DNA of 64,000 bases from assembly GCA_001798075.1 (NCBI GenBank), contig MGRG01000005.1, positions 193,148 to 257,147 on the forward strand. Direction: 5' to 3'. Origin of the DNA: Deltaproteobacteria bacterium RIFCSPHIGHO2_01_FULL_43_49. GTDB taxonomy: Bacteria > UBA10199 > SPLOWO2-01-44-7. Positions 9,105-41,731 of the stretch are shown here, piece after piece (positions within the stretch are counted from its first letter, which is position 1; the number at the start of each line of letters is the position of its first letter). The notes under the pieces were generated by a model. That model searched no databases, was not told the origin of the DNA, and was given only the letters and a program-made list of their open reading frames with translations. Both the position numbers and the translations under genes were made by a program.

Positions 9105-9162
9105 GTCACCTACTTAACAAAAGCCATTGAGATTATCAATTTGACAATTACTTAATTTTTAG

Positions 9163-9248
9163 ATGATGGGTGGCCCGCAGTGTTTCTGTGGGGTTTAGTT
9201 AGGGGCCCCCACAGAAATACGGAGGGGCAGGACCCGTCATCTAAAAAT
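9163..9248. repeat. copy 1 of an 85-bp imperfect palindromic extragenic repeat family (orientation A)
   Basis: gggtggcccgcagtgtttctgtggggtttagttaggggcccccacagaaatacggaggggcaggacccgtcatc. Reverse complement of the copies at 12974 and 29320. Confidence 0.85.
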
Positions 9249-9251
9249 TAT

Positions 9252-40047: not shown

Positions 40048-40662
40048 ATGGAAATTTCCCAACGTAAACCTTGGCTAGAAAGAACGATCACTCTGTTGCT
40101 GATTGCCTATTTCATCTTTGGTTATCTTCCCATCGCAAGCTGGAATGAATCTAGGGGTTTTTATCATATCCTTGGATTTTCCTGGGAAGAAAAGATCCCT
40201 TTTATAACCCCCTTTATCTTGGGCTACAGCCTCGTTTATGGAAGTGTATTTTTTATTTATTGGGTCATTCCCAATTGGGTTGTTTTCAAAAAGATGGCGT
40301 GGGGATTTTTTTGGGTTACAACCATTCATTATGTTTTTTTCGTTCTTTATCCGGTCAAGATGGTTTGGAGACCAGAAATTGTTGAAGCAAAAGACCTATT
40401 TGAATGGATTGCTAAATTTATTTTTTCACTCGACAACACCTATAATTGTTTTCCTTCACTCCATGTTGCCTACCCCACACTCGCCACCACCCTTGCCTGG
40501 AAGTTTGTTCCCAAGATGCGATATTGGTTTGCGGCCATGGCCCTCATTACCGCTATTTCAGTCGTGTTGGTGAAACAGCACTATATTGTGGATGCCATCG
40601 GAGGGATGGTTGTTTCCATTCTGATTGGTTTGGTGCTGATAAGAACAAGCTCAAATGGTTAG
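40048..40662 (+). CDS. PAP2-superfamily-like integral membrane protein
   Basis: Five to six TM helices. PSLH and KQHYIVDAIGG resemble the PAP2 motifs 2 and 3. The assignment is tentative. Confidence 0.45.
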   Translation: MEISQRKPWLERTITLLLIAYFIFGYLPIASWNESRGFYHILGFSWEEKIPFITPFILGYSLVYGSVFFIYWVIPNWVVFKKMAWGFFWVTTIHYVFFVLYPVKMVWRPEIVEAKDLFEWIAKFIFSLDNTYNCFPSLHVAYPTLATTLAWKFVPKMRYWFAAMALITAISVVLVKQHYIVDAIGGMVVSILIGLVLIRTSSNG

Positions 40663-40689
40663 CGATAGGCTAACCCCCTGACACTTTTC

Positions 40690-40859
40690 GTTCCCAAGCA
40701 GGCGTGGCGGAAGGCTAACCCAAGGGACGTTATCAAAATGGGGGTGATCCCCCATTTTGCACTCTCTCTCGCCCCGCCAATTATTCAGAACCCCCATAAT
40801 GTGTGGCGGGGCTGCGAGAAGCCGCTTGGGTTAGCCTTCCGCCACGCCTGCTTGGGAAC
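40690..40859. repeat. 34-bp perfect inverted repeat pair flanking a 102-bp internally palindromic core (MITE-like or structured-RNA candidate)
   Basis: gttcccaagcaggcgtggcggaaggctaacccaa at 40690-40723. Its exact reverse complement is at 40826-40859. The core contains aaaatgggggtgatcccccatttt and gccccgcca...tggcggggc. Confidence 0.8.
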
Positions 40860-41066
40860 GGACAAGACTAGACTGGTGAAAAAGTCGCGCGAGGGATGCG
40901 TTTTGAGAAAAGCGTCTCGGAGCCCATTTTCACAAACGGGAAATAAAGATAAAATGGGCGAGAGTCGAGCGGCGATTTTGGGTCGTCCAAAAATCGACCA
41001 CGTCTTTTCGAAAAACCATCCCGGAAGCGACTTTTTCATCATATCCAAAAAATATCAGAGGGCTGG

Positions 41067-41642
41067 CTATCGATAGGGGATTTTTTGAACAGGTGGTGGC
41101 TCGGAATAAGGGATATGAATAGTTTTCTTTGTTTTTTGCGTCGGAATAGTTTTAGTCTCACTTTTTGGATAAACATCGTAGGTATCAGAGGAAACTTGTG
41201 TGGTTCCAAAAATTTGGTTGGACAACAATGTATCCCTTGACACGGCTTTTTTAACCTCTCCCTGGTCCTTGTTTTTAGTTTTTTTGGATGGGAGCTCTCC
41301 CAGTTCGTAGGTTCCCTCACCTTTTTGTTTTTTCTCTTCTTCAAAAGAGTCATAGATCACTTTGATTTCCATTTCTCCAGCCTTGCCCGTTTTTTTAAGA
41401 GGGGCCTGTTTCGTTGTGGTTGTGGAAGGTAATGCAGGAGGGGGTGGTTTGGCATAGGGTTCTCCTGTGAGTGGTTGCACGACAGGAGTCCCTACCGGTT
41501 GGACCACTTGACCAATCCCTGTTGTCAACGTTGTGTTGGGATCATTTCCGAGAAGTGCTTTGCGAGTATCATCGTTTGCCTGCGCATACACTTTTTGGCT
41601 GAGGCAACAAGCAATTAGAATTGACAAGACGCAGCATTTCAT
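41067..41642 (-). CDS. hypothetical secreted Pro/Lys/Thr-rich protein
   Basis: Signal peptide MKCCVLSILIACCLSQKVYAQA. Low-complexity PPPP/TTTT/KK-rich body. Confidence 0.5.
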   Translation of the reverse strand: MKCCVLSILIACCLSQKVYAQANDDTRKALLGNDPNTTLTTGIGQVVQPVGTPVVQPLTGEPYAKPPPPALPSTTTTKQAPLKKTGKAGEMEIKVIYDSFEEEKKQKGEGTYELGELPSKKTKNKDQGEVKKAVSRDTLLSNQIFGTTQVSSDTYDVYPKSETKTIPTQKTKKTIHIPYSEPPPVQKIPYR

Positions 41643-41731
41643 ACACTTCAGTATATCAGGTGCCAGGTACCTTTTGCAACAATTTCAACTAGAGTTTTGC
41701 ATTGCACGAAAAAGGTACCTGGCACCTTTAT

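What the first reader, a model, noticed from the sequence alone, without database searches (positions are those of the whole stretch)
40690..40859. 34-bp perfect inverted repeat pair enclosing a highly structured 102-bp core downstream of the PAP2-like gene
gttcccaagcaggcgtggcggaaggctaacccaa (40690-40723) is exactly reverse-complementary to 40826-40859. The enclosed sequence contains two further perfect palindromes: aaaatgggggtgatcccccatttt, and gccccgcca...tggcggggc. The two ORFs called over it (40738..41076 on the plus strand and 40785..41048 on the minus strand) are mutually overlapping and read through the palindromes, so they are probably non-coding. It could be a MITE with terminal inverted repeats, a structured sRNA, or a large bidirectional terminator between the PAP2-like gene and the convergent secreted-protein gene.
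Basis: seen in the sequence. Interest (0 to 1): 0.55.

Follow-up and report, generated by a model that had tools for sequence, protein, structure and literature searches.

The report
T-shaped palindromic DNA repeat element
The perfect inverted repeat is real and is one copy of an uncatalogued family of about 170-bp non-coding DNA palindromes, each a long stem capped by two small hairpins, that is scattered between housekeeping genes in several bacterial phyla and most likely spreads as a small parasitic DNA element.

Summary
The perfect inverted repeat is 36 nt (40689-40724 / 40825-40860), with two perfect inner hairpins.

The neighbouring weaker palindrome (e2, 40874-41041) is a diverged homologue in inverted orientation. 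A covariance model built from these copies found more than 30 members. They occur at three loci of the same species, including one 96.6% copy of e2. They also occur in MAGs labelled Deltaproteobacteria/Myxococcales, Pseudobdellovibrionaceae, Patescibacteria, Chloroflexi, Acidobacteria and Planctomycetes.

All members share one plan: a long closing stem whose sequence differs between copies, two hairpins, and conserved junction motifs (GACG; CTCG-N-CTCTCGGC; GCCTCCGAGACGC).

Covariation is strong, but the pairs are Watson-Crick only, with no G-U enrichment. There is no Rfam hit, no U-tract, no target-site duplication, no conserved termini and no linked protein. Several copies sit at contig ends. 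The overlapping ORFs are not coding.

Best reading: a REP/REPIN-like, DNA-level, non-autonomous mobile palindrome. The mobilising enzyme is unknown. A classical MITE, an sRNA and a terminator are each poorly supported.

No second copy of e1's own arm sequence was found. This is a new family of a known general kind, of moderate interest.

The parts
40689..40860 (+). Element e1: a complete T-shaped palindromic module, with its sense orientation on the + strand. It is the most divergent family member, yet every stem is perfect.
   Evidence: 36-nt perfect arms. Covariance models R1 and R2 match 40707-40842 on the + strand at 110.7 and 73.6 bits. Fold z-scores are -13 as RNA and -15 as DNA.
40689..40724 (.). 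Left arm of the e1 closing stem.
   Evidence: 100% complementary to 40825-40860.
40825..40860 (.). Right arm of the e1 closing stem.
40726..40729 (+). 5' junction motif GACG; the family consensus is (G/T)ACG.
   Evidence: Conserved column in alignment A8; sequence.
40734..40759 (+). Hairpin H1 of e1: CAAAATGGGGG-TGAT-CCCCCATTTTG.
   Evidence: I11. This is helix 2 of the family structure, in which all 12 pairs covary.
40766..40822 (+). Hairpin H2 of e1 with its conserved base: CTCTCGCC ... GGCTGCGAGAAGC. The distal stem is 40771-40779 / 40804-40812.
   Evidence: The base of H2 (TCTC/GAGA plus GSC/GSC) is nearly invariant across 28 members (helices 3 and 4).
40874..41041 (-). Element e2: an older sibling module in inverted orientation, sense on the - strand, lying 3' end to 3' end with e1. 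The arms are 40874-40915 / 41000-41041 (71% complementary). On the + strand, H1 is 40973-40996, H2 is 40923-40958, and the motifs are GCGTCTCGGAGCC at 40911-40923 and GGCGAGAG at 40957-40964.
   Evidence: I2. Fold z = -5.6. Homology to e1 with 18 of 42 pairs compensatory. Model match 40893-41023 on the - strand at 125.8 bits. A 96.6% copy lies at an unrelated locus, L009 4191-4370.
40861..40873 (.). 13-nt spacer between the 3' ends of e1 and e2.
40656..40675 (+). Small hairpin GGTTAGC-GATAG-GCTAACC spanning the PAP2 stop codon. Its 3' half (40662-40676) matches the inner part of the e1 left arm (40707-40721) at 13 of 15 positions. The meaning is unclear.
   Evidence: D5, I6.
40048..40662 (+). 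PAP2_3 family gene. The e1 arm starts 26 nt after its stop codon, in the sense orientation.
41067..41642 (-). Convergent 191-aa gene with a signal-peptide-like N-terminus. The e2 arm starts 25 nt after its stop codon, in the sense orientation.

Best explanation
Element e1 (40689-40860) is one copy of a dispersed family of non-coding T-shaped DNA palindromes, 140-220 bp long. Each member has three parts. The first is a long closing stem of 17-45 bp, near-perfect, whose sequence differs between subfamilies. The second is a pair of internal hairpins, H1 and H2. The third is a set of conserved nucleotides at the three-way junction and at the base of H2: (G/T)ACG, CTCG-N-CTCTCGGC and GCCTCCGAGACGC.

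e1 lies 3' end to 3' end with an older, diverged sibling (e2, 40874-41041). Together they fill the spacer between two convergent genes.

Shown: the family is repeated within genomes at unrelated intergenic sites. Copies usually begin a few nucleotides after a stop codon. The family is found in several phyla. Its helices covary strongly but use Watson-Crick pairs only.

Inferred: it is a non-autonomous mobile element that works at the DNA level, as a single-stranded DNA hairpin or an extruded cruciform, in the manner of REP/BIME/REPIN elements. An unlinked, structure-specific enzyme would copy it in trans by recognising the conserved junction rather than the termini. An HUH/Y1-type transposase is the most plausible candidate, but that is a guess.

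Also inferred: the perfect complementarity of the arms is kept or restored by hairpin-templated copying or repair. This would explain why a sequence-divergent copy such as e1 still has flawless stems.

Any effect on the flanking genes, such as protecting the mRNA 3' end or blocking read-through, would be secondary.
For: - Sibling next door: e1 and e2 are homologous in inverted orientation. The alignment score is about 4 SD above shuffles, and 18 of 42 consensus pairs are compensatory.
- Copies in the same species: e2 has a 96.6% copy between acpS and yjeF, again paired with an inverted sibling. A third locus, between purC and purS, carries a 90.6% copy of that sibling. The two MAG names share an identical PAP2 protein.
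- Copies elsewhere: a motif scan of GTDB genomes followed by covariance-model filtering gave members at 27-114 bits. They come from MAGs labelled Myxococcales, Deltaproteobacteria, Pseudobdellovibrionaceae, Patescibacteria, Chloroflexi, Acidobacteria and Planctomycetia.
- Multi-copy within genomes: one MAG has five copies, and two MAGs have copies at the very ends of contigs. In one Myxococcales MAG the whole pair is duplicated at about 88% identity.
- Structure: 92.5% of cells are paired against 62% in shuffles and 41-51% in slid controls. There are 175 double-change cells against 52 in shuffles.
- DNA-level signature: 757 Watson-Crick pairs, 14 G-T and 15 A-C. Wobble pairs are therefore not favoured on either strand.
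- No RNA family: no Rfam match on any member.
- No linked protein: 129 flanking ORFs show no recurrent family and no transposase. Neighbours include rplC, trkA, gatC, ligA, uvrC, purC and purS.
- Compensated changes in the arms between copies of one genome.
- Not coding.
Against: - No second copy of e1's own arm sequence was found. There were none in the window, none in GTDB representative genomes, and only two chance hits in JGI metagenomes. These collections also missed the source locus itself, so the negative is weak.
- e1 is the most divergent member, at no more than 55% core identity to any other. It deviates at two conserved motifs: GAGAAGC in place of GAGACGC, and it lacks GCTCG.
- No empty site was recovered, so movement is inferred from copy distribution and was not observed.
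- No mobilising enzyme, no conserved termini and no target-site duplication were found. Known copy numbers are low: at least 5 modules in the source species.
- Copies lie right after stop codons in the sense orientation in 16 of 27 cases (the two further sense-orientation cases are). This placement would also suit a 3'-UTR RNA element.
- The motif used for the genome scan was required to be present, so its apparent invariance across the family is partly due to how members were found.
- Phylum assignments rest on MAG binning.
Confidence: 0.6

Rival explanations
1. It is a classical MITE: an internally deleted derivative of a DDE-type insertion sequence. Its transposase would bind the terminal inverted repeats, and insertion would duplicate the target site.
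For: The element is short, non-coding and intergenic. It has long terminal inverted repeats and belongs to a multi-copy family with near-identical copies at unrelated loci. Copies break assemblies at contig ends.
Against: The terminal arms are the least conserved part of the family, while the internal junction is the most conserved. That is the reverse of what transposase-bound TIRs predict. No target-site duplication is visible where boundaries can be set by comparing copies. No transposase recurs among 129 neighbouring ORFs. No pair of modules flanks a transposase; the only separated pair, in L101, flanks a glycosyltransferase-like gene.
Confidence: 0.12
2. It is a structured RNA: a 3'-UTR element or small RNA transcribed with or after the upstream gene. 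The T-shaped fold would bind a protein or protect the mRNA 3' end.
For: Helices covary strongly and junction and loop nucleotides are conserved. Modules often start 4-60 nt after a stop codon in the sense orientation, as e1, e2, L009 A, L138, L141, L080, L058 and L024 do. The RNA fold is very stable.
Against: G-U pairs are not enriched over A-C (14 against 15 among 839 cells). Selection on RNA on one strand would tolerate G-U but not A-C. There is no Rfam family, no promoter-like or terminator-like site at the element, and no U-tract. Eleven of 27 modules are antisense or divergent to the adjacent gene. A 36-bp perfect duplex is untypical of bacterial small RNAs. Near-identical copies next to unrelated genes are better explained by mobility.
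Confidence: 0.15
3. It is a purely local feature: a large bidirectional terminator or insulator between the convergent PAP2 and 191-aa genes that evolved in place.
For: It lies between convergent genes, with one stable hairpin facing each gene.
Against: No T/U tract follows either stem, and no terminator-like site was called within 40663-41066. Homologous modules occur inside co-directional operons (acpS|yjeF, purC|purS, after rplC) and upstream of divergent genes. Relatives that keep the RNR-thyX-PAP2 synteny have a short 3' spacer of 73-135 bp with no module.
Confidence: 0.05
4. It is an assembly or amplification artefact, such as a fold-back chimera.
For: Perfect long palindromes can arise as artefacts.
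Against: The sequence is identical in an NCBI MAG and in two independent ENA re-assemblies made with different assemblers. The element has the conserved family architecture.
Confidence: 0.01

Closest known systems
REP / BIME / REPIN elements mobilised by RAYT (TnpA-REP, Y1 HUH) transposases, including the CGTC-tagged REPs of Di Nocera et al. 2013 (PMC3733652)
   Same: Both are extragenic palindromes that lie mostly downstream of coding regions and between co-directional or convergent genes. Both often occur as inverted dimers whose partners differ (heterodimers). Neither makes a target-site duplication. Both form within-genome families, have no adjacent transposase, and are recognised by structure plus a short unpaired tag. 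A GACG/CGTC tetranucleotide sits next to the stems here, and on the complementary strand H2 reads 5'-CGTC-stem. The REP properties are taken from PMC3733652.
   Different: REPs are 20-40 nt single hairpins; the CGTC type has 8-9 bp stems, 4-5 nt loops and a CCA tail. These modules are 140-220 bp three-way junctions with 17-45 bp closing stems. REPs occur in hundreds of copies, whereas only a handful per genome are documented here. The REP consensus sequences are not met. A RAYT gene could not be looked for.
Bacterial MITEs with stable folded structures (Correia/NEMIS, ERIC, RUP, BOX, bcr1, Nezha); properties recalled from my own knowledge
   Same: Both are non-coding intergenic repeats of 100-200 bp with terminal inverted repeats and stable predicted folds, and both are sometimes co-transcribed with neighbouring genes.
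   Different: Those families have conserved termini and usually a target-site duplication (for example TA for Correia). Each is restricted to one genus or family. Here the termini vary, the junction is conserved, no duplication is seen, and members occur in several phyla.
T-shaped inverted terminal repeats of parvoviruses (AAV ITR) and the Y-shaped telomere fold-backs of Streptomyces linear replicons; a structural analogy only, from my own knowledge
   Same: Both have a long stem capped by two small palindromes that form a three-way junction. Both are DNA-level structures and occur in inverted orientation at the two ends of a unit. Rolling-hairpin copying of such ends restores perfect complementarity. 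A GCTC-type repeat lies next to the junction (GCTCGGCTCTCG in e2, against the GAGC repeats of the AAV Rep-binding element).
   Different: There is no Rep/NS1 gene, no linear replicon and no flip/flop isomers. The elements sit inside bacterial chromosomes with little or nothing between the two ends. No sequence homology was tested or claimed.
IS200/IS605-derived PATEs and integron attC sites
   Same: In both, single-stranded DNA hairpins are recognised by structure rather than sequence, and no target-site duplication is made.
   Different: IS200/IS605 ends carry hairpins in direct, not inverted, orientation. The attC R''/R' boxes (RYYYAAC...GTTRRRY) are absent: e1 reads GTTCCCA...TGGGAAC, and other members have unrelated ends.

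Membership tests
Classical MITE (DDE-transposon derivative) | Terminal inverted repeats whose sequence is conserved among copies, as the transposase-binding site. | tested here: not met
   Every member has long arms, but arm sequences differ completely between subfamilies, and the conserved part is internal. Arms are shared only between recent copies.
Classical MITE (DDE-transposon derivative) | Target-site duplication flanking the element. | tested here: inconclusive
   No direct repeat appears at boundaries defined by comparing copies: Ac.bin.255, L009 A against L138, the Myxococcales pair and e1 itself. Without an empty site, a 2-3 bp duplication cannot be excluded.
Classical MITE (DDE-transposon derivative) | Multiple copies in the genome. 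| tested here: met
   This holds at family level: at least 5 modules at 3 loci in the source species and 5 copies in Ac.bin.255. For e1's own subfamily no second copy was found.
Classical MITE (DDE-transposon derivative) | A related autonomous insertion sequence with the same ends. | tested here: inconclusive
   None was found in about 35 loci of roughly 8 kb each. Whole genomes could not be searched.
REP / REPIN-RAYT system | A 20-40 nt imperfect palindrome with a conserved GTAG or CGTC head. | tested here: not met
   Modules are 140-220 bp three-way junctions. A GACG/CGTC tetranucleotide adjoins the stems, but the stem and loop dimensions of CGTC REPs are not met.
REP / REPIN-RAYT system | Extragenic location, mainly downstream of ORFs, often as inverted dimers. 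| tested here: met
   All members are intergenic. Sixteen of 27 lie directly after a stop codon in the sense orientation (the two further sense-orientation cases are). Inverted 3'-to-3' pairs occur at 5 loci in 3 genomes.
REP / REPIN-RAYT system | A cognate RAYT (Y1 HUH) gene in the same genome. | not testable with these tools
   The host genomes could not be retrieved whole, and no Y1_Tnp hit ranked among the flanking ORFs.
Structured non-coding RNA (an Rfam family) | A match to a curated covariance model. | tested here: not met
   No match at gathering threshold in the window or in 13 member loci, and only noise at E up to 10.
Structured non-coding RNA (an Rfam family) | Covariation that tolerates G-U on the transcribed strand. 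| tested here: not met
   Covariation is strong, but G-T (14) is about equal to A-C (15), and both are rare against 757 Watson-Crick pairs.
Intrinsic (Rho-independent) terminator | A GC-rich stem followed by a U-tract. | tested here: not met
   No terminator-like site lies within 40663-41066 on either strand, and no T run follows either stem.
Integron attC site | R''(RYYYAAC)...R'(GTTRRRY) boxes at the ends of an imperfect palindrome. | tested here: not met
   The e1 ends read GTTCCCA...TGGGAAC, which is the opposite arrangement, and other members have unrelated ends.

The most novel reading that the evidence does not exclude
These modules are the visible part of an undescribed class of prokaryotic DNA element that spans several phyla, including Patescibacteria. 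Each is a T-shaped single-stranded DNA hairpin, analogous to a parvoviral ITR. An unknown structure-specific enzyme, possibly of the HUH/Rep type, would recognise the conserved three-way junction. The arms would be regenerated by hairpin-templated synthesis at each copying event. That would explain the copy-specific yet perfect stems, the Watson-Crick-only covariation, the absence of target-site duplications and the 3'-to-3' pairs.
Probability: 0.25. Interest if true: 0.75.

Novelty: new variant of a known kind. Interest (0 to 1): 0.55.

Why it matters
Small interspersed palindromes such as REPs, REPINs and MITEs shape bacterial genome structure, mRNA stability and assembly quality. Those known so far are simple hairpins or TIR-bounded elements, and each is confined to a narrow lineage.

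This family differs in four ways. Its architecture is a three-way junction. The junction, not the termini, is conserved. Its helices covary without wobble pairs. It occurs in distant phyla, including the tiny genomes of Patescibacteria.

If a dedicated enzyme recognises the junction, that would be a new structure-guided way of mobilising DNA. In practice the family breaks MAG assemblies and generates spurious 'hypothetical protein' calls; the 112-aa and 125-aa proteins deposited for this species are examples. A covariance model would let annotators mask it.

Tried and rejected
- An exact 20-mer from the e1 arm found nothing in GTDB representative genomes. In JGI metagenomes it gave two chance hits inside unrelated sequence. 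Neither collection returned the source locus, so e1-specific copy number remains unknown.
- Rfam at gathering threshold and at E up to 10 gave nothing relevant.
- A motif scan of viral contigs gave only chance matches, all at or below 14 bits. BLASTN of e1 plus e2 against plasmids and phages found no match.
- A query made by concatenating the six-frame translations of e1, e2 and L009 A saturated the candidate list and returned nothing. That search was wasted.
- Looking for decayed partner modules next to single copies, with the speed filters off, found none.
- Looking for an autonomous element, meaning two inverted modules around a gene, turned up only L101. The gene between those modules looks like a glycosyltransferase.
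- Looking for a recurrent neighbouring protein found none. The three 23S_rRNA_IVP hits all come from one locus.
- Looking for a conserved target motif or duplication at element boundaries found none.
- PAP2 orthologue loci in related species were examined as possible empty sites. Synteny breaks right after PAP2, so they are uninformative.
- Literature searches for the motif and for T-shaped bacterial elements found nothing relevant.
- The DNA of the P0123 variant of this locus could not be retrieved.

Full report
**Observation.** The feature is real. The repeat finder gives arms of 36 nt, 40689-40724 and 40825-40860, 100% complementary and 100 nt apart. The core holds two further perfect hairpins: 40734-40759 (11-bp stem) and GCCCCGCCA/TGGCGGGGC at 40771-40779/40804-40812. 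The whole element folds into a long stem capped by two hairpins. As RNA it reaches -128 kcal/mol on either strand (z about -13.4 and -13.9). As DNA it reaches -79 kcal/mol (z = -15). The same sequence appears in an NCBI MAG contig (GCA_001798285.1, MGRS01000022.1) and in two independent ENA re-assemblies, so it is not an artefact. The source organism is 'Deltaproteobacteria bacterium RIFCSPLOWO2_12_FULL_44_12' from the Rifle aquifer.

**A second copy next door.** The remainder of the 404-nt spacer between the PAP2_3 gene (40048-40662, +) and the convergent 191-aa gene (41067-41642, -) holds a weaker inverted repeat, e2. Its arms are 40874-40915 and 41000-41041, 42 nt, 71% complementary. It has the same long-stem-plus-two-hairpins fold (z = -5.6).

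- Aligned as a reverse complement, e2 is homologous to e1. The score is 83 against 47 +/- 9 for shuffles.
- Short blocks are shared: GACG, CTCTCGCC and GGGCTNCGAGA.
- Eighteen of 42 consensus pairs changed on both sides while keeping the pair.

The two modules therefore lie 3' end to 3' end, 13 nt apart. Each starts about 25 nt after the stop codon of the gene it follows.

**A dispersed family.** The 112-aa ORF laid over the elements has only one relative, P0002. P0002 lies between acpS and yjeF on another contig. That MAG shares an identical PAP2 protein with the source, so it is the same species. The acpS-yjeF spacer contains a 96.6% copy of e2, again paired 3'-to-3' with a diverged sibling, 'A'.

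I built a covariance model from these four modules. I then scanned GTDB genomes with the shared motif CTCTCGSC-N28-40-GSCTSCGAGAMGC. Most of the 115 stretches returned were chance hits in GC-rich genomes. Filtering with the model, and then with a model rebuilt from the first matches, identified about 30 true members at 27-114 bits. They come from MAGs labelled as follows:

- Myxococcales (L018, L088)
- Deltaproteobacteria (L016, L124, L068)
- Pseudobdellovibrionaceae (L129)
- an unclassified bacterium, Ac.bin.255, with five copies
- Patescibacteria (L024, L058, L065, L080, L109, L114)
- Chloroflexi (L074)
- Acidobacteria (L066)
- Planctomycetia (L071, L101)

A profile made from the spurious ORFs found further copies. 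One is a third locus in the source species, a single module exactly filling the purC-purS spacer and 90.6% identical to A. Another, in a different organism from the same sample, lies directly after a TonB-receptor gene.

**Signs of multi-copy status and copying.**
- Several copies lie at or within about 100 nt of contig ends: L050, L078, L124, L016 and L080. This is typical of repeats that break assemblies.
- In the Myxococcales MAG the whole pair is duplicated at about 88% identity.
- Partners within a pair are never each other's closest relatives. Pairs are therefore not local inverted duplications.

**Anatomy.** Every member has a closing stem of roughly 17-45 bp, often perfect (37 bp in L068, 31 bp in L016). 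The stem sequence is unrelated between subfamilies. The conserved positions are internal: (G/T)ACG before H1, CTCG-N-CTCTCGGC leading into H2, and GCCTCCGAGACGC closing H2.

On 20 members, 92.5% of cells are paired, against 62% in column shuffles and 41-51% when partners are slid. There are 175 double-change cells against 52 in shuffles. The four pairs at the base of H2 are nearly invariant, which suggests sequence-specific recognition there. That apparent invariance is partly circular, because the scan required the motif.

The non-canonical cells are informative. Among 839 cells there are 757 Watson-Crick pairs, 14 G-T and 15 A-C. Selection on an RNA fold on one strand would tolerate G-U and remove A-C. 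Equal and rare counts instead fit a DNA palindrome that must pair on both strands, or a process that copies one arm from the other. Copies within a single genome also show compensated changes in the arms.

**What it is not.**
- Not a protein. The ORFs have no homologues other than other copies. The frame through the conserved blocks is open in only 15 of 27 members, and the translations are not conserved.
- Not a known RNA family. There is no Rfam match in the window or in 13 member loci.
- Not a canonical terminator. There is no T tract and no terminator-like call.
- Not a classical MITE. The termini vary while the interior is conserved. No target-site duplication appears at boundaries defined by copy comparison. 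No transposase or any other recurrent family occurs among 129 flanking ORFs, which are ordinary housekeeping genes.
- Not found in phages or plasmids.
- Not an attC site. The end boxes are absent.

**Position relative to genes.** The 5' side of a module almost always abuts a gene boundary, with the core 4-66 nt from it. The 3' side faces a longer spacer or a partner module. In 16 of 27 cases the 5' neighbour is co-directional, so the module follows a stop codon (the two further sense-orientation cases are). In the other 11 cases the neighbour is on the opposite strand; gene starts there are uncertain because I used longest ORFs. Related species that keep the RNR-thyX-PAP2 synteny have a short spacer with no module after PAP2, and different downstream genes.

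**Interpretation.** The best-supported reading is a REP/BIME/REPIN-like element. It would be a non-autonomous, DNA-level palindrome copied in trans by an unlinked enzyme that reads structure plus a few junction bases. The REP literature describes the same placement downstream of ORFs, inverted heterodimers, absence of target-site duplications, an unpaired tetranucleotide tag (including a CGTC class with no known transposase), and possible cruciform or large-hairpin formation (PMC3733652). The differences are large, though. These modules are five times longer, are three-way junctions, are known only at low copy number, and occur across phyla. I therefore do not file it as a REP.

The architecture resembles the T-shaped ITR of parvoviruses. 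That is an analogy from my own knowledge, not a tested relationship. It suggests one way perfect, copy-specific arms could be regenerated, namely hairpin-templated synthesis. The identity of the enzyme is inference only. I consider an HUH/Y1 enzyme the most plausible.

**Caveats specific to e1.** It is the most divergent member, at no more than 55% core identity. It deviates at two motifs. No second copy of its arms was found, although the collections I could scan did not return the source locus either. One protein record (P0123, from run SRR3989338) appears to be a strain variant of this very locus. It keeps e2, the flank and the outer roughly 16 nt of both e1 arms, but has a different interior of about 54 nt. 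Its DNA could not be retrieved. If the variant is real, the outer stem may pre-date the T-shaped core, or the core may be exchangeable.

**Verdict.** This is a new family within the known general class of bacterial interspersed palindromic repeats, with unusual architecture and phylogenetic breadth. Interest is moderate.

Noticed in passing
window 40874-41041: A second, older module (e2) homologous to the reported element lies 13 nt away in inverted orientation. It has a 96.6% copy at the acpS-yjeF locus of the same species.
   Followed up: yes
protein P0123 (SRR3989338), corresponding to window ~40654-41048 on the minus strand: This looks like a strain variant of this locus. Its translation matches e2, the spacer, the outer ~16 nt of both e1 arms and the PAP2-side flank. 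The e1 interior, however, is replaced by about 18 codons of different sequence (LAAAGAPTAARPAPAGGR). The DNA was not retrievable.
   Followed up: partly
window 40656-40676 versus 40707-40721: A 7-bp hairpin spans the PAP2 stop codon. Its 3' half, GCGATAGGCTAACCC, matches the inner e1 arm, GCGGAAGGCTAACCC, at 13 of 15 positions. It could be chance or a trace of how the arms arose.
   Followed up: no
window 41658-41675 / 41710-41727: A perfect 18-nt inverted repeat (AGGTGCCAGGTACCTTTT) with a 34-nt loop lies between the divergent 191-aa gene and the LMW-phosphatase/ArsC-like gene, overlapping the latter's possible start. It may be an operator or a leader hairpin.
   Followed up: no
window 9153-9250: Nested inverted repeats lie in a short stretch: 19 nt at 95% with 60 nt between the arms, enclosing a 23-nt repeat at 83%. 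It is another structured intergenic element of unknown kind, and it is not matched by the family model.
   Followed up: no
L003/L006 (ERZ27254846 k141_1156243) versus window ~39098: In one assembly of the same organism, the class II ribonucleotide reductase upstream of thyX is replaced by a 483-aa gene and a DsbD_N gene. Identity to the window resumes close to the RNR/thyX stop-codon overlap. This is either a strain rearrangement or a mis-join.
   Followed up: partly
L117 2370-2591 and the homologous flank in L078: In MAG Ac.bin.255 a different ~220-nt long palindrome (33-nt arms at 88%, DNA fold z = -7.6) sits on the 3' side of the module at two loci. It is not matched by the family model.
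   Followed up: partly
L018 281-664, 2456-2824, 5690-6103: Three genes of the 23S_rRNA_IVP (four-helix-bundle, Avd-like) family lie within 6.7 kb around the module pair in a Myxococcales MAG. This was seen in no other member locus.
   Followed up: partly
L074 6833-6958 versus L066 4145-4241: Module cores from a MAG labelled Chloroflexi and one labelled Acidobacteria (Ca. Acidiferrales) are 88% identical. That suggests horizontal transfer or a binning error.
   Followed up: no
L058 4604-4752; L114 5816-5950: In Patescibacteria MAGs the 5' arm of the module overlaps the last codons and the stop codon of the upstream gene (rplC in L058). Insertions can therefore reshape the 3' ends of genes.
   Followed up: no
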